A stretch of DNA of 29,688 nucleotides, taken from assembly GCA_964525615.1 (NCBI GenBank), contig CAZGKG010000003.1, forward strand, positions 457-30,144, given 5' to 3'. Shown here piece by piece: positions 7,921-17,096 of the stretch. Made by a program: the position numbers and the translations under genes. This stretch comes from an uncultured Rickettsiales bacterium. Lineage in GTDB: Bacteria > Pseudomonadota > Alphaproteobacteria > Holosporales > CAZGKG01. Below the pieces are notes generated by a model that was given only the letters and a program-made list of their open reading frames with translations, had not been told where the DNA came from and searched no databases. How positions within the stretch are numbered: position 1 is the stretch's first letter; every line of letters starts with the position of its first letter.

Positions 7921-8517
7921 TTGAGGAAAACAGAAACCTCTCCCTCTTCTGCTGAAACACCTTTGTGGGAGATGCTTCCGTCTTGTCCCTTTCCGGGGGC
8001 GCCTTCTTTTTCTGAACGTCTTGATGAGGCCTTGCGAGTCGACCTTGCAGGAGAAAGGGGAGCAGAAGCCATTTATGAAGGACAATTGCGAGCTTTAGGG
8101 AATCATCCTTTCGTGCCCCTTTTGGAGGAGATGGCGACTCAAGAACGTGTCCATATCAAAGCTTTCGAAGAAAGGGCGGCCCTTCATCATGTGCGCCCCT
8201 CCTTTTTAACCCCCTTTTGGGAAAAGGCTGGTTTTCTTTTAGGTTTAGGTACCGGGCTTTTAGGGGGGAAAGCAGCAATGGCTTGCACTGCCGCAGTGGA
8301 AGAGGTCATTGATGCTCATTACCAAGAACAGATTGAAACATTAGCTTTTGTTGATCCTGAATTAGGAGAGTTTCTTGAGAAATGTCGTTCGGATGAGGTG
8401 ATGCATCGGGAAACAAGTCTGGAGCATGGAGCAGATGAGGCTCCTTTTTCCCCCCTTTTACAAAAAGCAATTCGTACCGCAACGCGCCTTGCAATTAGTA
8501 TTGCGAAGAAAGTTTAA
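7921..8517 (+). CDS. coq7: Demethoxyubiquinone hydroxylase (Coq7 di-iron family)
   Basis: RVDLAGERGA..IYEGQ, QERVH, RPSFLTPFW..AGF.LG, AMACTAAVEEVIDAHY.EQ, DEVMH iron ligands; alternative start ATG 7972. Confidence 0.92.
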   Translation: MRKTETSPSSAETPLWEMLPSCPFPGAPSFSERLDEALRVDLAGERGAEAIYEGQLRALGNHPFVPLLEEMATQERVHIKAFEERAALHHVRPSFLTPFWEKAGFLLGLGTGLLGGKAAMACTAAVEEVIDAHYQEQIETLAFVDPELGEFLEKCRSDEVMHRETSLEHGADEAPFSPLLQKAIRTATRLAISIAKKV

Positions 8518-9512
8518 GAAACGAAAGCAGAAAAAGGATAACTGACCCAAAGGTTGGGAAAGGCTTTCCTTACCATGTGTTCATCTTTTTTCAAAAAAAG
8601 TAATTTTAGATTTGGACCTGCGTCTTGAGTCCAGTAGACGGAAAGACCTTGGGCACGCAACGCATAAATACGCTCAATTGTTGCAAGGGTTTCCTGGTTT
8701 GTATAAGAAATAGAGGGAATCGCAGATCCTATCACGTTATGAAGAGCTAAGGCGTTTTTTTCCGTTAAATCTCCCAGAGCCTTAAAATCTTCCTCTTGAA
8801 GAATTTTTAGAATACTCACCAGATCCTTTTCTGTATGATCGACCCATTGGGAATAGCCGGGAGAGGTTTTTTGGGTGATCTCCATCGCTTCTCGAGAGGA
8901 AATCTCTTTTGGGGACTCCTGTAAAACAATAATTCCTGCCACAAGATCTGGCATCAGAAAAGGTAAAGGAGTTCCATGACTATCAAAACCGTCTTCTTGG
9001 GTACCTCGATTCCAAAGAACAAATCCCTGCCATAGGGATCGGCAAGCACTTCCACTACCAAGACGCGCCAAACAGGAAAGGGTTTGTAGATCTGCGTTCC
9101 AATCACAAAGTAAATTAAGGGCTTTTACAAGCGCTGCAAACCCACTTGCAGAAGATGCCAAACCTGAAGCAATCGGAATATTACTTTCTGTTGAAACAGA
9201 TAAGGAATCTTGGAGGGAAAAAAGGGAAAGAAAACCTCTGAGTCGCTTTCCAAAAGGTGTTTCCCATGAAATTTCCCTTCCTTGAAGCTTTAGGGAAGGA
9301 GATCCTTTTAGAAGACTTAACTTTGTTTTAGTCCCCCATTCGGGGAAGGTTAAGGACAAACTTCCTGCAGTTGGAAGATTTAATTCTTGATCCCTTTTGC
9401 CCCAATACTTGACGAGGGCAATATTAACCGGAGCAAAGACTTCTACCTCTTGTTTTTGAACAGTCTTATTTTTTCCCTCTAGAATTTTTTGAACGATCTT
9501 AAAGCGTTTCAC
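8514..9512 (-). CDS. mvaD: Diphosphomevalonate decarboxylase
   Basis: NIALVKYWGKRD, GLASSASGFAAL, RLGSGSACRS (catalytic Arg), TQDAGPN (catalytic Asp); GTG start overlapping the upstream gene by 14 nt. Confidence 0.96.
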   Translation of the reverse strand: MKRFKIVQKILEGKNKTVQKQEVEVFAPVNIALVKYWGKRDQELNLPTAGSLSLTFPEWGTKTKLSLLKGSPSLKLQGREISWETPFGKRLRGFLSLFSLQDSLSVSTESNIPIASGLASSASGFAALVKALNLLCDWNADLQTLSCLARLGSGSACRSLWQGFVLWNRGTQEDGFDSHGTPLPFLMPDLVAGIIVLQESPKEISSREAMEITQKTSPGYSQWVDHTEKDLVSILKILQEEDFKALGDLTEKNALALHNVIGSAIPSISYTNQETLATIERIYALRAQGLSVYWTQDAGPNLKLLFLKKDEHMVRKAFPNLWVSYPFSAFVS

Positions 9513-10440
9513 GCATCAGGCCTTTTGCGGTGGTTTCAATAGAAAAAAGAGGGAACGTGTGGAAAAGCTTTTCCGTCTGATGATTCAGATGACCTAGACC
9601 GATCACACAATCACCAAGTCCCGATCCTGAAATTTTAGCGCCCCAAATGGTAGGTTGTGTCCTGAGTTTAAAAATGAGATCGGCTAAGGTGGGTGTGTTC
9701 ACGCCATAAGCATCCATTAATCCCTGGGCGATATCAAAAATTTTTCCTACCCGTTCTAGATTGTTTTCTAAAAGAGCAGGAAGGGCTAAATCCACCAATT
9801 CTTTTGAGGTTTGAAGAAAAGAAGACCAGATGTGAGGAAAGGCTTGAAAGCGTTGCCTTACAACTTCTACAACTTCAGGTGTTTTCCTTTTGATGCCTGA
9901 ATAAACAGCAACTAAGGGAAGGTCCGCTCTAATCTGTTGAGTAGATCCAGTTATAGGATTATGGAGCACAACTCCTCCCCAAAGGCTGGCAGCAGCATCA
10001 GCACCTGATCCCATGCCTTGAACTTTTTGGATCACTTCTTTTGCTTTCTCCCAAAGAAATTGCCGACTCACCGCATCAAAATCTTTTTCTGGGTTAAGAT
10101 AAGTCCATAAGGCCCCTAAGGTTGCAACTGTCACAGCTGCGGATGATCCAAACCCTATTTGTTCTGAAAAATCTGAAAAGATTTTTAACTGTAAAGAAGC
10201 GGGCATTTGAGTTTTATAAAGAGCAAAGGCTTCCTTGACAAAAGAAAAAGCTGGAGGTGTTTCGGATGATCTGAGATCAAAACTGCCATGAAAGTCCGAG
10301 TGAACCCAACAGCCCTCTCCCCCTAACTCAAGAGAAACAAGGATGCGCCCCTTATGGGCCACAAGAAGGGCTGGACATCCCGACAGGACCGCATGCTCTC
10401 CTAAAAGCATTAAGCTACCCGGTGCAGAAACTTTAATCAC
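9499..10440 (-). CDS. mvaK2: Phosphomevalonate kinase (GHMP family)
   Basis: SAPGSLMLLGEHAV, GFGSSAAVTVA, QGMGSGADAAAS and KISGSGLGDC, which are PMK-type signatures; GTGA overlap with the upstream kinase. Confidence 0.8.
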   Translation of the reverse strand: MIKVSAPGSLMLLGEHAVLSGCPALLVAHKGRILVSLELGGEGCWVHSDFHGSFDLRSSETPPAFSFVKEAFALYKTQMPASLQLKIFSDFSEQIGFGSSAAVTVATLGALWTYLNPEKDFDAVSRQFLWEKAKEVIQKVQGMGSGADAAASLWGGVVLHNPITGSTQQIRADLPLVAVYSGIKRKTPEVVEVVRQRFQAFPHIWSSFLQTSKELVDLALPALLENNLERVGKIFDIAQGLMDAYGVNTPTLADLIFKLRTQPTIWGAKISGSGLGDCVIGLGHLNHQTEKLFHTFPLFSIETTAKGLMRETL

Positions 10441-11303
10441 AATTCAAATCTCACAGGAAAAAGTTGAAGGGGGGGAGTCCGATCCCAAACACTTAAAATG
10501 AATCCTCCTAACCCCGATCCAGTAGGTTTCACAGCAAGAGCTCCGTTTTTGAGAAGCCTTTCCATTTCTTGACGCATCTCTTTTGTGATAAGACCCCAGG
10601 CGTCGAAGCATTCTTTGGCTAATGTGACTCCTTGGGCAAGAGCACTTAAACTATCAGAATTATTTAAGATGCCCTTTAAAATTGTTTGAGTGGCTTCCTT
10701 CATTTGATCGTCAATCGTTTCTGAAAGTTGGGGATTAGCTTTTCTCAATCGTGAGACCTCTTCAATAGCAGGCCTTGTTTTTCCCATCTCACCACAAAAG
10801 GACAAAAAAAAAGGAGAATCACTAATAAAAGATAAGGGAATTATTTTAAAGGGCTCTTTTCTATAAAGTTGAGGGCCGTTTGCTAAAACTCCTGCGATAT
10901 CTACGCCGCTTGTTGTACCATGAAAAAAGCCCTCAATCGGGAGAGCTGTTTCAAAAATTTTTTCTTCAGAAAAATGAGGGCGAAAAAGACGTACCAGCCC
11001 CACAGCTAAAGCTGCAGATCCTCCCAACCCGCATCCTAAAGGCATATTAAGGTGAATCAAAATTCCTGGAAGCGTTTCTTGAAAAAAATTCTCTAAGAAC
11101 CTTTGAAACGCATCCCCCCCCTCAAAAGGAGTCCAGGTTTTTGTTGACTCTCCAGTAATCCAGATCCCCTCCCCTTCAGAAATTTTTTCAATTTCTAATG
11201 AAAAAGATTTTAAAGGAAGCACAAGCGCCTCCCCCCCCCGTAAAACGGTGTGCTCTCCTGAAAGAATGCATTTGCCGTGGCTTCTAGCGATATTTCTAAT
11301 CAT
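10437..11303 (-). CDS. mvaK1: Mevalonate kinase (GHMP family)
   Basis: HGKCILSGEHTV, GCGLGGSAA, FHGTTSGVDIA (MK catalytic Asp context), KPTGSGLGG; lies between HMGR and PMK. Confidence 0.82.
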   Translation of the reverse strand: MIRNIARSHGKCILSGEHTVLRGGEALVLPLKSFSLEIEKISEGEGIWITGESTKTWTPFEGGDAFQRFLENFFQETLPGILIHLNMPLGCGLGGSAALAVGLVRLFRPHFSEEKIFETALPIEGFFHGTTSGVDIAGVLANGPQLYRKEPFKIIPLSFISDSPFFLSFCGEMGKTRPAIEEVSRLRKANPQLSETIDDQMKEATQTILKGILNNSDSLSALAQGVTLAKECFDAWGLITKEMRQEMERLLKNGALAVKPTGSGLGGFILSVWDRTPPLQLFPVRFEL

Positions 11304-12561
11304 CTGTGCGCTCTTTTTGAAGAAGCTTTAAAATTTCTGGACTACTGATATATCCCTTGCTTTTTAATCCTTGATGCAGTTCTTTTTTTAGATTTTTGCT
11401 TTCTAGAGGGGAAGCTCCTGCGGACAAAAGCAAATTATCAATATGAAGGGCCATGTGTCCTTGAACGATTCCTACCGTTACTAAAGCGCGCAGCGCACCT
11501 AAGTTTTGCAAAAGGCCGATACTTGCCATAACTTGAGCGAGTTCTTGGGCTTTTGAAATGCCCAAAATCTTAAAAGAAAGACGCGCACCTGGGTGAGAAT
11601 TTGTAATACCCCCCACACAGCCAACGGGAAAAGGTGCCTCTAAAAAACCATTTAATGTACCCTCTTTGAAAACCCATGTGGAAAGTCCTCGATAGGTACC
11701 ATCACGAGCAGCATAGCTATGAAGAGCTGCTTCTAAAGCCCGCCAATCATTTCCCGTTGCAACGGCTACACCGTCAATACCATTTAAAAGACCTTTGTTG
11801 TGGGTGGCGGCGCGGTAGGGATCTAGTTGAGCAAAAAGAGAAGCCTCCTCAAGAGCCTCTCCCATACAAGATGAAACTCCGGGCACAGAAACTTGGACTC
11901 GCACACGTCTTAAGTCAGACAAATTCGATAGAACTGCCATTCCTAAGGTTTCTTCCGTCTCAGCTGCGATCAGGTGTTTTAAAAATTCGCAAATTTGGTT
12001 GATGAGATTTGCACCCATTGCCTCTTGCACGTCGACATGAACATGAATCACCCCCATATGATCACCATCAGGCCGAGGAAGTTGACGAAATAGGATATCT
12101 CTAATACCCCCGCCTCGTGCCGCCATCATACAAGCCGGTCCTTTATGGGCCTGTTCTATCAGAAATTGTTTCTTGCTGGACAATAGGTCCTTTAAACGGG
12201 AGATATTTTTTATCTTGGGAATATGGATTTGCCCAATCATTTCCTGAGGCGGCAGAGATTCTGCCGTAACTTGCCCCCGTTGTTTTTCAATCCAACGAAC
12301 TGTTTTTTGAAGAGCTGCAATGACAGAAGTTTCCTCCGTTACAAGAGGCACTGTATAGGTTCGATGATTGACGACAACGTCAGACACGATTCCTAAAGGG
12401 AGGGCATAATATCCCACAGCATTTTCAATCAAAAGGTCAGACAATCCTTTGTCAGGAAGGCCTCCCCCTTTCAAGAAGGTTTCCTCTTCATCACAAAGGC
12501 CTGAAATTTCCCTTAAAAGAAGCAAACGTTCTGGCAAAGAAAGCCGACTAAAAGACCGCAC
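11296..12561 (-). CDS. mvaA: Class II hydroxymethylglutaryl-CoA reductase
   Basis: ENAVG (catalytic Glu), VTEETSVIAA, EAMGAN, ATHNKG (Lys), GNDWRA (Asp), GHMALH (His); GTG start 3 nt after the fabF stop. Confidence 0.96.
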   Translation of the reverse strand: MRSFSRLSLPERLLLLREISGLCDEEETFLKGGGLPDKGLSDLLIENAVGYYALPLGIVSDVVVNHRTYTVPLVTEETSVIAALQKTVRWIEKQRGQVTAESLPPQEMIGQIHIPKIKNISRLKDLLSSKKQFLIEQAHKGPACMMAARGGGIRDILFRQLPRPDGDHMGVIHVHVDVQEAMGANLINQICEFLKHLIAAETEETLGMAVLSNLSDLRRVRVQVSVPGVSSCMGEALEEASLFAQLDPYRAATHNKGLLNGIDGVAVATGNDWRALEAALHSYAARDGTYRGLSTWVFKEGTLNGFLEAPFPVGCVGGITNSHPGARLSFKILGISKAQELAQVMASIGLLQNLGALRALVTVGIVQGHMALHIDNLLLSAGASPLESKNLKKELHQGLKSKGYISSPEILKLLQKERTDD

Positions 12562-12564
12562 CCC

Positions 12565-13818
12565 TTACACTCGCTTGAAAATAAGCGAAGCATTTGTACC
12601 ACCAAAACCGAAAGAATTAGACAAGACAAAATCGATTTTTTTCTCCCGTGCTTTATGGGGTACAAGATCAATGACCGTCTCTTCTGGTTCATCCAAGTTC
12701 AGCGTTGGCGGTAAGCAATGATCTCGCAAAGCTAAAAGGGAAAAGATCGCTTCCACACCGCCGGCTCCCCCAAGAAGATGTCCAGTAGCTGATTTTGTAG
12801 AAGACATTGAAAGGTCCTTTGCCGCCTGACCAAAAAGTCTCTCCACAGCCCGTAATTCAATAGAGTCACCCATCGGGGTTGAGGTTCCATGGGCATTCAC
12901 ATACCCAATAGCCTCTGGAGAAATTTTCGCACGCTTTAGAGCATTGCGCATAGATCTAAAAGCGCCATCTCCATCTTCTGCAGGAGCTGTTATATGGTAG
13001 GCATCGCCTGACAAACCGTATCCTAAAAGCTCGCCATATATGGGAACCCCACGTTTTTTGGCGTGTTCATATTCTTCCAAAACTAAAATTCCTGCCCCCT
13101 CTCCCATCACAAATCCATCGCGATTTTTATCCCAAGGACGTGAAGAGGCCTCAGGAGAATCATTAAAAGAGGTAGAAAGCGCTCGAATCGCCGCAAAACC
13201 TGCAACACCAATACGACAAATAGCAGCTTCAGTCCCTCCTACGACCATGACATCAGCTTCTCCTGTTTGAATCAGGCGTGCCCCGTCTCCAATTGCATGA
13301 GATCCTGAAGCACAGGCAGTCACAACGGAAAGGCTTGGGCCCTTCAGCTGATGGCGAATAGAAATATGGCCCGTGGCTAGATTCACAAGACAAGCAGGAA
13401 TAAAAAAGGGGCTGACACGTCGGGGTCCACTGTCCTTGAGCACGACAGATGTCTGATAAATCTCAGGAAGTCCCCCAATACCTGAACCAACCAAAACGCC
13501 TGTTTTTTCTTTCTCTTCCTCTGTTTCAGGTGCCCATGCGGCATCTTTCAAAGCCTCATCTGCTGCTGCCATTGCATAAAGAATAAAACGGTCCGCCTTT
13601 CGTTGATCCTTAGGAGGCATCACATGATCGAGATTGAGCAAACCTTCTCCTTCTCCAAGAGGGATTTGTCCTCCGACACGGCATGCCAAATCTTGCGTTT
13701 CAAATCCTGACAAGTGCCGCAGTCCGGATTTTCCTTCAATTAATTGCTTCCATACAAAATTAACACCCGACCCCAGAGGGGATACAAGCCCCATTCCTGT
13801 TACCACAACGCGCCGCAT
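12565..13818 (-). CDS. fabF: 3-oxoacyl-ACP synthase II
   Basis: MRRVVVTGMG, TACASG (Cys), NAHGTST and TGHLLG (His/His), SNSFGFGGTNA; GAGGA SD. Confidence 0.98.
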   Translation of the reverse strand: MRRVVVTGMGLVSPLGSGVNFVWKQLIEGKSGLRHLSGFETQDLACRVGGQIPLGEGEGLLNLDHVMPPKDQRKADRFILYAMAAADEALKDAAWAPETEEEKEKTGVLVGSGIGGLPEIYQTSVVLKDSGPRRVSPFFIPACLVNLATGHISIRHQLKGPSLSVVTACASGSHAIGDGARLIQTGEADVMVVGGTEAAICRIGVAGFAAIRALSTSFNDSPEASSRPWDKNRDGFVMGEGAGILVLEEYEHAKKRGVPIYGELLGYGLSGDAYHITAPAEDGDGAFRSMRNALKRAKISPEAIGYVNAHGTSTPMGDSIELRAVERLFGQAAKDLSMSSTKSATGHLLGGAGGVEAIFSLLALRDHCLPPTLNLDEPEETVIDLVPHKAREKKIDFVLSNSFGFGGTNASLIFKRV

Positions 13819-14269: not shown

Positions 14270-14436
14270 CCCCCACTTTCCAAAAGCATTTTTTTAAGGT
14301 TTTTATGCGATACCAAAGGGGGGTCATTTTCATCCCTCCGTTGCCTTTGCTTAATTCTATCTTCTCTTCTTTTTGATTGATATTTAATTAATTGCCCTCT
14401 ACCGTTAACGATAGAGGGTTGTTTTTAAAAGGGCTC

Positions 14437-15204
14437 ATGATTGCCATGACCTCAGATTTCGGATTTAAATTTTTATCTCCTGACGAAAAAACAAAGGCTG
14501 TTCAGGATATCTTCAAAAAGGTTTCTTCCCGTTATGATCTGATGAATGATCTGATGAGTTTGACCCTACATCGTTGTTGGAAGAAACGATTTGTCGCAAC
14601 AATTCCATCCCAAGCCTTTAGCCAAGATTCCAGTCCCTCCCTGATTCTTGATATAGCTGGAGGAACCGGAGATATTCTAAGGCTTTTGATACAAAGGGCC
14701 TCTTTTTTATCGGCTTCTTGTCACTTTATTCTTTCTGATCTTAATTTTTCAATGCTAGCGCAAGGGCGAAGATCTCTCACCCAAGAAAACTTATTTTTTT
14801 TATGTGCAAATGCTGAAAAGCTGCCCCTTTCCCAAGGCATCATCTCTCTTTATACAATTGCTTTTGGTCTGCGGAACATCACCTATAAAGAAAAGGCGCT
14901 GGCGGAAGCTTTTAGGGTTTTAAAACCTGGAGGGTTTTTTTATTGCTTGGAATTTAGCCACCCAACGTCCCCCTTACTTCAGGGGATTTATGATATCTAC
15001 TCCTTCAAATGGATTCCCCTTTTAGGAAAATACATCGCACAAGAGGAAAAGGCCTACCAATATCTTGTTGAAAGTATTCGAACATTCCCGGATGCGCCTT
15101 TGCTTCAAAATTTGATTCAGGAAGCGGGGTTTACAAACACAGGCTTTCAAAAACTTTCAGGGGGATTGGTGGCAATTCATTGGGGGGAAAAACCCCAAAA
15201 GTAA
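14437..15204 (+). CDS. ubiE: Ubiquinone/menaquinone C-methyltransferase
   Basis: FGFK...EK...VQDIF..V..RYDLMNDLMSL.LHR.WK, LDIAGGTGD, NAEKLP, IAFGLRN, RVLKPGG, CLEFS, YQYLVESIR.FP; alternative start 14446. Confidence 0.96.
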   Translation: MIAMTSDFGFKFLSPDEKTKAVQDIFKKVSSRYDLMNDLMSLTLHRCWKKRFVATIPSQAFSQDSSPSLILDIAGGTGDILRLLIQRASFLSASCHFILSDLNFSMLAQGRRSLTQENLFFLCANAEKLPLSQGIISLYTIAFGLRNITYKEKALAEAFRVLKPGGFFYCLEFSHPTSPLLQGIYDIYSFKWIPLLGKYIAQEEKAYQYLVESIRTFPDAPLLQNLIQEAGFTNTGFQKLSGGLVAIHWGEKPQK

Positions 15205-15775: not shown

Positions 15776-15955
15776 AGGAAAAACTCCTGAAGAAAAAGTC
15801 AATAGGGGAATAGAGAAAAAGAGACACCAGTGACCTAGAAAAAATATTTTTTAAAATAAAAACCCCCTTAAAAGATTTGCAAGCCTTTAAGATTTTAGTA
15901 GGATTTTTTCGTAAAAGTATTTTGGTTTTTTTGAAAAAATTTTTAGGATTTTTTT

Positions 15956-16375
15956 ATGTCCAGAAAGATAGGCTCGCTTTTTGGGATCGCACTTTTAGGC
16001 GCTTGCACCTCAACGCCCAAACCCTCCAACGTTCCCTCTATTGTCTTTTCTTCCAGTAATGATAAGAAAATTAATAGAGGGGCTCTCTTTATGGAAAGGC
16101 AAATGGCCCAAACAGAAGCTGAAAGACGTTTGATTCGTAAAATTCTTGAATCAAAAACTGATCATTCCCCTTCTGATAACTTCCCCTTACCTACCGAAGA
16201 AGAGCTACATATTGCAGGAGAGCTTCTTTCTCAACAGTACAAAAAATCAAAAAAGATCCCCAGGAAAGATCTTGTTTCTCTTTTGGTCTCTCATATGAAT
16301 TTAGGATCGCCTTCTGAAGCGTCAGCAAAAGCAGAAGTCATTTTGAATTTGATTATGGGGACGAAACACCTTTAG
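15956..16375 (+). CDS. Hypothetical lipoprotein
   Basis: MSRKIGSLFGIALLGAC is a basic n-region, hydrophobic h-region and lipobox; 139 aa; no recognisable family. Confidence 0.7.
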   Translation: MSRKIGSLFGIALLGACTSTPKPSNVPSIVFSSSNDKKINRGALFMERQMAQTEAERRLIRKILESKTDHSPSDNFPLPTEEELHIAGELLSQQYKKSKKIPRKDLVSLLVSHMNLGSPSEASAKAEVILNLIMGTKHL

Positions 16376-16461
16376 CCTTTAATCTTGTGTTGCATTGTAA
16401 AGGTCAGTATACAATCCCTTACACCCTTGTGAAAAATCCTCCTAAGAGCTTTGAGGGAATT

Positions 16462-17096
16462 ATGGAACGTCTTAAGGGCCTCTTTGTCTCTTCAGTTGTC
16501 TATCCCCTTTGTTTTTTTTCTTTTGCCGTTGGCTTTTTTCCTTTTGTAGGAGGGAATGAGACAGACCTCTTAAGAAAATTGGCGCCTCCCCTTTTTTGGC
16601 TGATGGGATTTTTGACCCTTCTTTTTTCCTTTGGTGCCATTGAGGAGGGATTTCGAGACGGTCTTTTTGACCGTTGGTGGTTGCGCCCCCTATCACCATG
16701 GCAGAGCATTCTCCGTCTTTGGGGGCAACACCTTCTTTTTTTTGGAATTCCTTTTGGCGGTGCGTGTGTTTTTTTAAGTGACCTTTACGGTCTTTTGTGG
16801 AGGAAAAAATTATCCTTTTTCCTCGGTTTTGGTTTGGGTGTTCTTTTCTCAGTTTGTTAGGGATTTTTTTAGGAATTCTGAACTTTGGCACACGAGGCGG
16901 TATTTTTTTACAAGGGCTTTTAATGTTTCCTTTAGCAGCACCTCTTTTGCTGTTAGGAATTGGTGTGGGAGAAAATGGACAGGTGGAATTATTTCCCCTA
17001 TCTTATCTAGGAGGATTTTTAGCATTAGGATTGATTGAAGGCTTGTTTGCTTTTTTCTTAGGTTCTTGGGCATTAAAACAACGACTTTTGACATGA
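16462..17096 (+). pseudogene. ccmB: Heme exporter permease CcmB, frameshifted as assembled (one base missing around 16790-16840)
   Basis: Frame 1 (ATG 16462 to TAG 16860) encodes FFPF..G.E..LLRKLAP.LFW...LL..GF.DG.FD.W.L.P....HLLFFGIP. The overlapping frame to 17096 encodes SFLSLLG...G..RGG..LQGLLMFPLAAPLL. Together about 211 aa; ATGA overlap with ccmC. Confidence 0.8.

What the first reader, a model, noticed from the sequence alone, without database searches (positions are those of the whole stretch)
8514..12561. Four-gene mevalonate operon in an alphaproteobacterium, resembling Legionellales/Coxiella enzymes
Seen: mvaA-mvaK1-mvaK2-mvaD with intact catalytic motifs and 8-, 4- and 14-nt overlaps; three of the four start with GTG. 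Known: most Alphaproteobacteria use the MEP pathway, and mevalonate genes are patchy and often transferred. From recall, not computed: the order HMGR-MK-PMK-MVD and motifs such as HGKCILSGEH, KPTGSG.GG and SAPGSLML.GEHAV resemble Coxiella/Legionella. Inference: horizontal acquisition between intracellular bacteria sharing protist hosts, now compositionally ameliorated.
Basis: partly seen in the sequence, partly recalled or inferred. Interest (0 to 1): 0.75.

Follow-up and report, generated by a model that had tools for sequence, protein, structure and literature searches.

The report
Mevalonate operon in reduced alphaproteobacterial symbiont
A small-genome lake alphaproteobacterium that lacks the usual bacterial (MEP) route to isoprenoid building blocks makes them with a foreign, mixed-ancestry mevalonate operon, a pattern already known from a few other symbionts but not yet described for this lineage.

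Summary
On the minus strand, fabF is followed by a class II HMG-CoA reductase, a 288-aa mevalonate kinase, a 313-aa phosphomevalonate kinase and a diphosphomevalonate decarboxylase. The overlaps are 8, 4 and 14 nt, and the quoted motifs are present.

The 1.09-Mb genome (95% complete) has no dxs, dxr, ispG or ispH. It does have thiolase, mvaS, type-2 IDI, UppS and a polyprenyl synthase. The operon is therefore read as the only IPP source. All four genes are under purifying selection.

No genome of the 22-genome order has dxr or ispH, and only this family has HMGR.

The horizontal-transfer reading is partly supported:
- MVD and PMK fall in a well-supported clade with Legionella- and Coxiellaceae-labelled MAGs.
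- A single alphaproteobacterial MVD clade is rejected (AU p 0.0007).
- HMGR is sister to a Legionellaceae plus Bdellovibrionota clade, not nested in it; MK resembles the kinase of their gene clusters but was not placed in a tree with them.
- The Coxiellaceae-type operons carry a different HMGR and MK, so the operon looks mosaic.

Donor, direction and a shared protist host are not shown. The gain is old: synteny is conserved across the family and composition is native.

This scan has already noted similar mevalonate operons on other DNA. The nearest published precedent is 'Candidatus Sarmatiella mevalonica'.

The parts
12565..13818 (-). fabF (beta-ketoacyl-ACP synthase II, 417 aa). It is the first gene of the co-directional block, and its stop lies 3 nt before the HMGR start.
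   Evidence: TIGR03150 at 609 bits and NF005589 at 629 bits. The junction reads TAA-GGG-GTG. The fabF-HMGR adjacency is conserved in G001, L010 and L160.
11296..12561 (-). mvaA, class II HMG-CoA reductase (421 aa, GTG start)
   Evidence: PF00368, and TIGR00532 at 288 bits, above its cut-off. The best solved relatives are class II enzymes (6DIO, 1QAX), and the residues at E83, K267, D283 and H381 are conserved. dN/dS against a congener is 0.09.
10437..11303 (-). mvk, mevalonate kinase (288 aa, ATG, 8-nt overlap with mvaA); a short, divergent GHMP kinase
   Evidence: PF00288, and TIGR00549 at 109 bits, below its cut-off. The best solved match is S. aureus mevalonate kinase 2X7I. It forms a 100* clade with homologues from G419, G082 and L010, next to Firmicute and Actinobacterial MKs but with weak support. 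It is 36% identical to the 293-aa kinase of a Bdellovibrionaceae cluster. dN/dS is 0.29.
9499..10440 (-). pmk, GHMP-type phosphomevalonate kinase (313 aa, GTG, 4-nt overlap with mvk)
   Evidence: PF00288 plus PF08544. It lies in a 99* clade with the P. zeaxanthinifaciens gene next to mvd (pmk). That clade is sister (97*) to the Firmicute and Actinobacterial mvaK2-position genes. The GTG start and N-terminus are conserved in L160. dN/dS is 0.10.
8514..9512 (-). mvd, diphosphomevalonate decarboxylase (332 aa, GTG, 14-nt overlap with pmk)
   Evidence: PF22700 plus PF18376, and TIGR01240 at 245 bits, above its cut-off. The motifs, including TQDAGPN, are present. dN/dS is 0.17.
7921..8517 (+). COQ7 (ubiquinone hydroxylase), convergent with mvd; the two stop codons overlap (TTAA). 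It is a consumer-pathway neighbour, not part of the operon.
   Evidence: PF03232 at 185 bits; sequence at 8505-8525.
14392..15204 (+). ubiE/COQ5 methyltransferase, a second ubiquinone-pathway neighbour, on the other side of the block
   Evidence: PF01209 at 240 bits.

Best explanation
The block fabF-mvaA-mvk-pmk-mvd encodes the four committed steps of the classical mevalonate pathway: class II HMG-CoA reductase, mevalonate kinase, phosphomevalonate kinase and diphosphomevalonate decarboxylase. The genes are translationally coupled.

Thiolase, HMG-CoA synthase and a type-2 IPP isomerase lie elsewhere in the genome. Together with the operon they form the only route from acetyl-CoA to IPP and DMAPP in a 1.09-Mb, ATP/ADP-translocase-bearing alphaproteobacterium from lake water, probably labelled Holosporales. 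The products would feed UppS (cell-wall lipid carrier) and a polyprenyl synthase (ubiquinone side chain).

Shown here: gene identities, conserved catalytic residues, purifying selection, no MEP genes found, and the phylogenetic placements.

Inferred:
- The pathway is biosynthetic.
- The operon is of non-alphaproteobacterial origin and entered an ancestor of this family. Its order otherwise lacks both IPP pathways and presumably scavenges host isoprenoid precursors.
- The operon is a mosaic. HMGR and MK are of the type found in Legionella and Bdellovibrionota clusters. PMK and MVD are of the type found in Coxiellaceae-like and other gammaproteobacterial clusters.
- Since its gain it has been inherited vertically and has become compositionally native.
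For: Identity of the genes.

Rest of the pathway in the genome:
- thiolase at C27
- mvaS at C28
- fni at C2
- polyprenyl synthase and UppS

No dxs, dxr, ispG or ispH at 95% completeness.

Across the 22 genomes of the order:
- dxr 0 of 22 and ispH 0 of 22
- HMGR only in family f1
- polyprenyl synthase and UppS in 20 of 22 each

LeuS tree: the order is one clade (99*), and f1 is sister (99*) to f3, which lacks HMGR.

Function: dN/dS is 0.09-0.29 against a congener with the same synteny.

Foreign origin:
- MVD in 7 of 400 sampled Alphaproteobacteria.
- In the careful MVD tree, the window, L012, G001/L010 and G419 form a clade (99/97*) inside a 100/96* clade with Legionella-sp. and Coxiellaceae MAGs.
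- AU p 0.0007 against one alphaproteobacterial clade.
- PMK gives the same picture.
- In the careful HMGR tree, the alpha-type clade (99/97) is sister to a Legionella (100/98) plus Bdellovibrionota clade.

Mosaic:
- The nearest-MVD gammaproteobacterial genomes have no class II HMGR like this one. The five checked carry a PF00368 HMGR that this protein did not detect, and they use another mvk clade.
- L. micdadei and Bdellovibrionaceae clusters have an HMGR 47-48% identical to this one but an MVD only 30% identical; the Bdellovibrionaceae cluster's kinase is 36% identical to this MK.

Age and vertical descent:
- fabF-mvaA-mvk-pmk-mvd synteny holds in G001 and L010 at 40-54% protein identity.
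- GC, codon usage and tetranucleotide content are typical of the genome.

Lifestyle: a TLC ATP/ADP translocase at 615 bits.
Against: - No expression or enzyme data. The RNA-run search gave only runs of unknown kind.
- mvaS is incompletely assembled: a 10-N scaffold gap and a contig end. An intact upper pathway is therefore assumed.
- The genome is a 115-contig draft, so missing MEP genes are 'not found', although the order-wide pattern makes chance loss unlikely.
- MK and PMK both score below the NCBIfam equivalog cut-offs. Their assignments rest on trees and on operon position.
- Inside the MVD clade the branching between the alpha and gamma groups is poorly supported (22-79), so direction is open.
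- The mosaic reading depends on few named genomes. MAG labels such as 'Coxiellaceae' are the submitters' own.
- The MK affinity to the Bdellovibrionales-type kinases rests on pairwise identity and a hit list; those kinases were not in the kinase tree.
- The HMGR of the five gammaproteobacterial genomes was not classified; 'class I-like' is inferred from their failure to match this HMGR at E 1e-10.
- fni occurs in the sister family f3 at the same identity as within f1. This hints that the gain may predate f1.
- The AU group was defined after seeing a quick tree.
Confidence: 0.8

Rival explanations
1. Older gain with later losses. The mevalonate module, with fni, entered before the split of families f1 and f3, or even at the base of the order where it replaced MEP, and was then lost in the other families. 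Family f1 would be a retainer rather than a re-gainer.
For: fni is present in f1 and in sister family f3 (G010 and G013 complete, a fragment in G007). Identity between f1 and f3 is 56%, the same as within f1 at 57%. fni sits directly before HMGR in the Legionella and Bdellovibrionaceae clusters. Losses are frequent in reductive evolution. The MVA proteins are already 40-54% diverged within f1.
Against: HMGR and f1-type MVD were found in no other family of the order. The only other MVD trace is in G019: two fragments on short contigs that are closer to gamma-type MVDs. A basal gain needs at least three losses. fni could equally serve scavenged IPP, as idi is proposed to do in Rickettsia (PMC5615194).
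Confidence: 0.3
2. Reverse direction. The PMK-MVD type arose or resided in reduced alphaproteobacteria and was passed to the Legionellales- and Coxiellaceae-like gammaproteobacteria, not the other way round.
For: With outgroup rooting, an alpha group (L148, G453, G473) branches first inside the shared clade (85). The internal nodes between the alpha and gamma groups are weak.
Against: The wider clade is dominated by Gammaproteobacteria and also holds Verrucomicrobiota, Kiritimatiellota and Lentisphaerota. MVD is rare in Alphaproteobacteria (7 of 400). The alpha carriers are scattered among non-carriers in the LeuS tree.
Confidence: 0.12
3. Vertical inheritance from an alphaproteobacterial ancestor that had the mevalonate pathway.
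For: Native composition. The operon is embedded among core genes with no mobility genes nearby.
Against: AU p 0.0007 against one alphaproteobacterial MVD clade. Paracoccus-type and Legionella-type MVDs of other Alphaproteobacteria lie elsewhere. 393 of 400 sampled class members lack MVD, and most of the sampled genomes outside this order have ispH.
Confidence: 0.03
4. The genes serve salvage or catabolism (use of host mevalonate or HMG-CoA, or mevalonate degradation as in Pseudomonas mevalonii) rather than de novo synthesis.
For: The best NCBIfam model for the HMGR is named 'degradative'. mvaS is not fully assembled. A review describes the Sarmatiella pathway as enabling use of host-produced metabolites (PMC11253213).
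Against: MK, PMK, MVD, fni, thiolase and an mvaS fragment 50-76% identical to the operon-linked mvaS of L010 are all present. There is no other IPP source. The 'degradative' model is a class II family label. No HMG-CoA lyase was looked for.
Confidence: 0.07
5. Binning or assembly artefact: the operon belongs to a co-occurring gammaproteobacterium.
Against: The operon lies mid-contig between core genes on a 30-kb contig. The same synteny is seen in four independent assemblies and in at least 20 metagenomes. Composition matches the genome.
Confidence: 0.01

Closest known systems
'Candidatus Sarmatiella mevalonica' (Rickettsiaceae) mevalonate pathway (Castelli et al. 2021, as summarised in PMC11253213; the original paper was not readable here)
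   Same: An obligate symbiont with a genome of about 1.2 Mb, in the Alphaproteobacteria, carrying a complete mevalonate pathway attributed to horizontal transfer. Related genes were noted in metagenomic bacteria.
   Different: It belongs to a different order. Its sequences were not identified in my sets, so gene types and order could not be compared. Here the whole order lacks MEP, and only one family has the pathway.
Paracoccus zeaxanthinifaciens operon mvaA-idi-hcs-mvk-pmk-mvd (Humbelin et al. 2002, cited in PMC7264872)
   Same: An alphaproteobacterial host. The pmk-mvd pair belongs to the same broad clade. The operon is functionally validated and can replace MEP in Rhodobacter (PMC7264872).
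   Different: It is free-living with a genome of about 3 Mb. Its MVD lies in another subclade, with Cardiobacteriaceae and Oceanospirillales. Its mvk belongs to the proteobacterial 'up2' clade, not the 288-aa type. idi and hcs lie inside the operon.
Mevalonate operons of Coxiellaceae- and Legionella-labelled MAGs (loci L018-L028): HMGR-mvk-pmk-mvd
   Same: The same gene order, and the closest named PMK and MVD (39-50% identity; clade 100/96*).
   Different: Their HMGR is not detected by this class II protein at E 1e-10. Their mvk is a different clade. Several fuse MVD to a NUDIX (type-1 IDI) domain.
Legionella micdadei and Bdellovibrionaceae clusters: fni-HMGR(class II)-unnamed ~300-aa ORF, plus MVD and a ~293-aa GHMP kinase
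   Same: The closest named HMGR (47-48%). The Bdellovibrionaceae cluster's kinase is 36% identical to the 288-aa MK. A type-2 IDI is present.
   Different: The gene order differs. Their MVD is only 30% identical. No homologue of the 313-aa PMK was detected. fni is unlinked in this genome.
Isoprenoid scavenging in Rickettsia (PMC5615194, PMC6854040)
   Same: The other families of this order look like Rickettsia. dxr, ispH and class II HMGR were not found in them; the only MVD trace is two fragments in G019. UppS and a polyprenyl synthase are retained.
   Different: This family is the exception: it carries its own pathway.

Membership tests
Class II (NAD(P)H, 'Pseudomonas-type') HMG-CoA reductase | Scores above the curated cut-off of the class II model and well below the class I models | tested here: met
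   TIGR00532 at 288.2 bits against a cut-off of 259.95. The class I models TIGR00533 and TIGR00920 score 26-28 bits.
Class II (NAD(P)H, 'Pseudomonas-type') HMG-CoA reductase | Catalytic Glu83, Lys267, Asp283 and His381 (P. mevalonii numbering; the residue roles come from my own knowledge) | tested here: met
   The alignment to 1QAX shows EE, ATHNKG, TGNDWR and QGHM conserved.
Mevalonate kinase (GHMP) | GHMP ATP-binding motif and the N-terminal GK..L.GEH motif | tested here: met
   PF00288; GKCILSGEH and KPTGSGLGG.
Mevalonate kinase (GHMP) | Reaches the equivalog cut-off of TIGR00549 | tested here: not met
   109 bits against a cut-off of 163. Homologues from G082 and G419 score 122 and 99 bits, also below the cut-off.
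Mevalonate kinase (GHMP) | Groups with characterised mevalonate kinases rather than phosphomevalonate kinases | tested here: inconclusive
   The best solved hit is S. aureus MK 2X7I, and Lactococcus MKs are among the homologues. In the tree it lies beside Firmicute and Actinobacterial MKs, but with weak support (69), and apart from the PMK clades.
Phosphomevalonate kinase (GHMP / ERG8-type) | Orthology with a functionally assigned pmk | tested here: met
   A 99* clade with the P. zeaxanthinifaciens gene directly upstream of mvd. That clade is sister (97*) to the mvaK2-position genes of Firmicutes and Actinobacteria. The operon order is taken from PMC7264872.
Phosphomevalonate kinase (GHMP / ERG8-type) | Reaches the cut-off of TIGR01220 or NF040957 | tested here: not met
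   49 bits and 31 bits. The protein scores higher on the mevalonate-kinase models, at 146 bits. The same holds for its proteobacterial homologues.
Diphosphomevalonate decarboxylase | Above the TIGR01240 cut-off, not the phosphomevalonate-decarboxylase model; conserved motifs | tested here: met
   245 bits against a cut-off of 171; NF040704 scores 77 against 475. Motifs; invariant columns.
Complete classical mevalonate pathway | Thiolase, HMG-CoA synthase, HMGR, MK, PMK, MVD and an IPP isomerase all encoded | tested here: met
   mvaS is present but cut by a 10-N gap and a contig end.
Complete classical mevalonate pathway | Enzymatic activity and flux to IPP | not testable with these tools
   The only indirect evidence is dN/dS of 0.09-0.29.
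   MVD and PMK share a clade with Legionellales-labelled MAGs. HMGR is sister to Legionellaceae plus Bdellovibrionota. MK is of another type than in those MAG operons.
   AU p 0.0007. Carriers G000/G001 and G419 lie in separate LeuS clades among non-carriers.

The most novel reading that the evidence does not exclude
The operon is a recombinant of two distinct bacterial mevalonate cluster types: HMGR and MK from the Legionella/Bdellovibrionota type, and PMK and MVD from the Coxiellaceae/Oceanospirillales type. This hybrid has spread among unrelated, genome-reduced, host-dependent alphaproteobacterial lineages: this family, G419 and its relatives G453 and G473, and contigs L012, L148 and L149. 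It would let lineages whose ancestors had lost all IPP synthesis regain independence from host isoprenoid precursors. The lone fni of sister family f3 would then be a remnant of a later loss.
Probability: 0.3. Interest if true: 0.6.

Novelty: new member of a known kind. Interest (0 to 1): 0.45.

Why it matters
Rickettsia depend on host isoprenoids, and that dependence is a proposed drug target (PMC6854040). This order shows the same auxotrophy. dxr and ispH were found in none of its 22 genomes, and class II HMGR in no family but this one, while UppS and a polyprenyl synthase are kept.

One family escapes that auxotrophy with a foreign mevalonate operon. This gives a natural comparison of dependent and autonomous symbionts within one order. 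It also adds a second alphaproteobacterial symbiont lineage beside Sarmatiella. The searched literature on Holosporales, including a 2025 review, does not mention isoprenoid synthesis.

The mixed ancestry shows that bacterial mevalonate clusters are reassorted in modules. It also cautions against naming MK and PMK from HMM best hits.

Tried and rejected
The kinase tree and the Paracoccus operon order reversed that.
- The two-frame mvaS on C28 looked like a frameshift. The sequence shows a run of 10 N, a scaffold gap.
- I searched the named genomes holding the nearest MVDs for the window's HMGR, to build a labelled HMGR tree. Almost none have it. This became evidence for mosaicism after a PF00368 check on five of them.
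- The listing of cluster members gave no names for ten HMGR and MVD hits. The HMGR tree therefore has few labelled tips.
- The promoter and terminator scans were not clearly above shuffled expectation: 7 promoter-like sites against 7.5 expected, and 16 terminator-like sites against 9.0 with sd 3.1. No transcription signals are claimed.
- The first sequencing-run call failed. The RNA search returned only runs of unknown kind.
- The MVD fragments in G019 (family f2) were considered as evidence for ancestral presence in the order. They resemble gamma-type MVDs more than f1's and sit on contigs of 3 kb or less. They are left as possible contamination or a separate gain.
- The taxon of contig L148 could not be named. 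It groups with G453 and G473.
- The Sarmatiella paper is not held.
- The order name 'Holosporales' rests on a truncated NCBI label, 'Hol...', of an 89%-identical protein. It was not verified.

Full report
**Observation**

The ORF list shows four co-directional minus-strand ORFs:
- 12561-11296 (421 aa, GTG)
- 11303-10437 (288 aa, ATG)
- 10440-9499 (313 aa, GTG)
- 9512-8514 (332 aa, GTG)

They follow fabF (13818-12565), whose stop lies 3 nt before the first GTG.

Pfam and NCBIfam identify:
- a class II HMG-CoA reductase (TIGR00532, 288 bits, cut-off 260)
- two GHMP kinases
- a diphosphomevalonate decarboxylase (TIGR01240, 245 bits, cut-off 171)

The quoted motifs are present. The four residues that I know as catalytic in P. 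mevalonii HMGR are conserved in the alignment to 1QAX.

The block lies among core genes: dnaN, mdh, COQ7, the alphaproteobacterial zeta ATPase inhibitor, ubiE, ccm genes, rpsB-tsf-pyrH-frr-gltX and leuS. No mobility genes are nearby.

**Which kinase is which**

HMM best hits are misleading here. Both kinases score best on mevalonate-kinase models, and the 313-aa one scores higher.

I built a tree of 85 GHMP kinases taken from mevalonate loci of named genomes. It resolves three groups:
- the genes downstream of mvd in Firmicutes and Actinobacteria (the mvaK2 position, PMK; 98*)
- a sister clade (97*) of proteobacterial genes directly upstream of mvd (99*)
- the mevalonate kinases

The second clade includes the P. 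zeaxanthinifaciens gene, which is pmk according to the published operon order mvaA-idi-hcs-mvk-pmk-mvd (PMC7264872). The window's 313-aa protein sits in that clade, so it is the PMK.

The 288-aa protein forms a 100* clade with homologues from three other genomes or contigs. This clade is separate from the proteobacterial mvk clade (99*) and loosely next to Firmicute and Actinobacterial MKs. Its best solved match is S. aureus MK.

**The rest of the pathway, and the alternative route**

The window lies in a 1.09-Mb draft of 115 contigs, 95% complete. Searches of the whole genome gave:

| Gene | Result |
|---|---|
| dxs | not found above cut-off |
| dxr | not found |
| ispG | not found |
| ispH | not found |
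| type-1 IDI | not found |
| type-2 IDI (fni) | found, 389 bits |
| acetyl-CoA acetyltransferase | found, 368 bits |
| polyprenyl synthase | one found |
| UppS | found |
| HMG-CoA synthase (mvaS) | found on contig C28 |

The mvaS gene looked frameshifted, but it is interrupted by a 10-N scaffold gap and by the contig end. It is 50-76% identical to the mvaS that directly follows mvd in relative L010.

The genome also encodes a TLC ATP/ADP translocase (615 bits). This fits a host-dependent lifestyle.

**Function**

A congener contig, L160, has the same gene order. Against it, dN/dS values are:

| Gene | dN/dS |
|---|---|
| HMGR | 0.09 |
| MK | 0.29 |
| PMK | 0.10 |
| MVD | 0.17 |
| neighbouring core genes | 0.04-0.11 |

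Near-identical operon DNA occurs in at least 20 lake or freshwater metagenomes.

**Distribution**

Results for the 22 species-level genomes of the order:

| Gene | Genomes with it |
|---|---|
| dxr | 0 of 22 |
| ispH | 0 of 22 |
| polyprenyl synthase | 20 of 22 |
| UppS | 20 of 22 |
| class II HMGR | only G000 and G001 (family f1) |

MVD is also confined to those two genomes, plus two fragments on short contigs of G019. Those fragments look more like gamma-type MVDs.

The order is thus largely auxotrophic for IPP, like Rickettsia (PMC5615194, PMC6854040). Family f1 is the exception.

In a LeuS tree the order is one clade (99*), and f1 is sister to f3 (99*).

fni occurs in f1 and f3 only. Cross-family identity (56%) equals identity within f1 (57%). 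The module may therefore predate the f1-f3 split.

Across the class, MVD was found in 7 of 400 sampled genomes, mostly of about 1 Mb.

**Phylogeny**

MVD, careful tree of 50 rows:
- The window, contig L012, G001/L010 and L015 (G419, an NCBI 'Alphaproteobacteria bacterium' MAG) form a clade (99/97*).
- That clade lies inside a 100/96* clade whose other members are MAGs labelled Legionella sp., Coxiellaceae and Gammaproteobacteria.
- The Paracoccus-type MVDs lie elsewhere.
- Forcing all alphaproteobacterial MVDs together is rejected (AU p 0.0007). The group was defined after a quick tree.

G419 is not a close relative of G000. It is 51% identical in LeuS and falls in a different 97* clade. Three of its 40 relatives also carry MVD, and two of them show the same mvk-pmk-mvd order.

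PMK gives the same picture as MVD.

HMGR, careful tree of 49 rows:
- The alpha-type clade (99/97) holds the window, G001/L010, L148, L149 and three metagenomic proteins.
- It is sister to a clade (89/80) made of a Legionella group (100/98) and a Bdellovibrionota-rich group.
- It is not nested in Legionellales.

**Mosaic structure**

The named gammaproteobacterial genomes that hold the nearest MVD and PMK have no class II HMGR like this one. The five I checked have a PF00368 HMGR that this protein does not detect at E 1e-10; in two of them it lies on the same contig, upstream of the kinases and mvd. Their first kinase belongs to another clade.

Conversely, Legionella micdadei and a Bdellovibrionaceae MAG carry fni, HMGR (47-48% identical to this one), an unnamed ORF of about 300 aa, and a GHMP kinase of about 293 aa. 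The Bdellovibrionaceae kinase is 36% identical to the window's MK. Their MVD is only 30% identical, and no homologue of the 313-aa PMK was detected.

Homologues of the 288-aa MK share contig lengths with class II HMGR hits in four cases, which suggests they lie on the same contigs.

So HMGR and MK resemble one cluster type, and PMK and MVD the other.

The hybrid arrangement, with mvaS at the end, also occurs on contigs L010 and L148. The MVD of L148 groups with G453 and G473. Other reduced Alphaproteobacteria (G082, G252, G379, G480) instead carry the Legionella-type MVD.

**Age**

GC, GC3, codon usage and tetranucleotide content of the operon fall inside the genome's own distribution. The fabF-linked synteny is shared with G001 and L010, where protein identities are only 40-54% against 72% for FabF and 67% for LeuS. 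It may predate the family.

**What remains inference**

Donor, direction and ecological setting are not shown. Branching between the alpha and gamma groups inside the MVD clade is weak. The MK link to the Bdellovibrionales-type kinases rests on pairwise identity and a hit list, not on a tree that includes them. Coxiella burnetii itself was not in my sets. The label 'Holosporales' comes from a truncated NCBI name.

**Literature and earlier scan notes**

The closest published precedent is 'Candidatus Sarmatiella mevalonica' (PMC11253213). A 2025 review of Holosporales mentions neither mevalonate nor isoprenoids.

This scan has already noted similar mevalonate operons on other DNA. These include a five-gene alphaproteobacterial operon and a multi-phylum cluster of Gammaproteobacteria, Verrucomicrobia and Lentisphaerae.

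**Verdict**

This is a real, functional-looking operon of foreign origin, and a new member of a known kind. The points of interest are the order-wide auxotrophy that it relieves and its mixed ancestry.

Noticed in passing
G000 contig C28:12702-13562 (locus L004 879-1751): The HMG-CoA synthase gene lies next to pth, away from the operon. In this draft it is cut by a run of 10 N and by the contig end. In relatives L010 and G001, mvaS directly follows mvd.
   Followed up: yes
G010:C35:7016-8011, G013:C2:99681-100679, G007:C14:5612-5905 (loci L161, L162): The sister family f3 has no HMGR, MVD, dxr or ispH. It keeps a type-2 IPP isomerase 56% identical to this genome's, and one member has only a fragment. 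This may be a remnant of a lost mevalonate module, or a tool for using scavenged IPP.
   Followed up: partly
window 15877-17093: Compared with the congener contig L160, ccmB (16462-16812, then 16875-17093) and the ORF before it (15877-15966, then 15956-16357) each match in two different reading frames. These are probably draft consensus errors like the one reported earlier in frr.
   Followed up: partly
L116 9299-10195 and L117 9303-10244: Legionella micdadei and a Bdellovibrionaceae MAG have an ORF of about 300 aa with no Pfam hit, directly after class II HMGR. Their clusters hold no recognisable second kinase. It is a candidate unrecognised phosphomevalonate kinase.
   Followed up: no
L148 9751-11289; also L019, L025, L042: MVD is fused to a C-terminal extension, giving proteins of 511-531 aa. 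In L148 the extension is a NUDIX (type-1 IDI-like) domain; the three Coxiellaceae- or Gammaproteobacteria-labelled MAG loci have ORFs of similar length that were not scanned. Several hits carry the same PF00293 domain.
   Followed up: no
L054, L073, L079, L080, L082, L085, L088, L090, L074: In Rhodanobacteraceae, Nevskia, Calditrichota and others, the class II HMGR match and a mevalonate-kinase-like match fall in one open frame of 750-800 aa. This suggests HMGR-kinase fusions. The frames were read stop to stop, and starts were not checked.
   Followed up: no
L037 (contig of a 'Candidatus Liberibacter europaeus' MAG): A pmk-mvd pair sits on a long branch in a 63-kb contig attributed to Liberibacter. 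This is either contamination of the bin or another alphaproteobacterial acquisition.
   Followed up: no
G000 contig C98:1140-2612 (L159): A TLC-type ATP/ADP translocase (615 bits), a hallmark of energy-parasitic intracellular bacteria.
   Followed up: partly
G001:C4:215190-217766 (L118): The LeuS match in the sister genus contains one in-frame TAG.
   Followed up: no
window 8514-8517: COQ7 and mvd converge, and their stop codons overlap on the palindrome TTAA. The operon is bracketed by two ubiquinone-pathway genes, COQ7 and ubiE. This arrangement is conserved in L160 but not in L010.
   Followed up: partly
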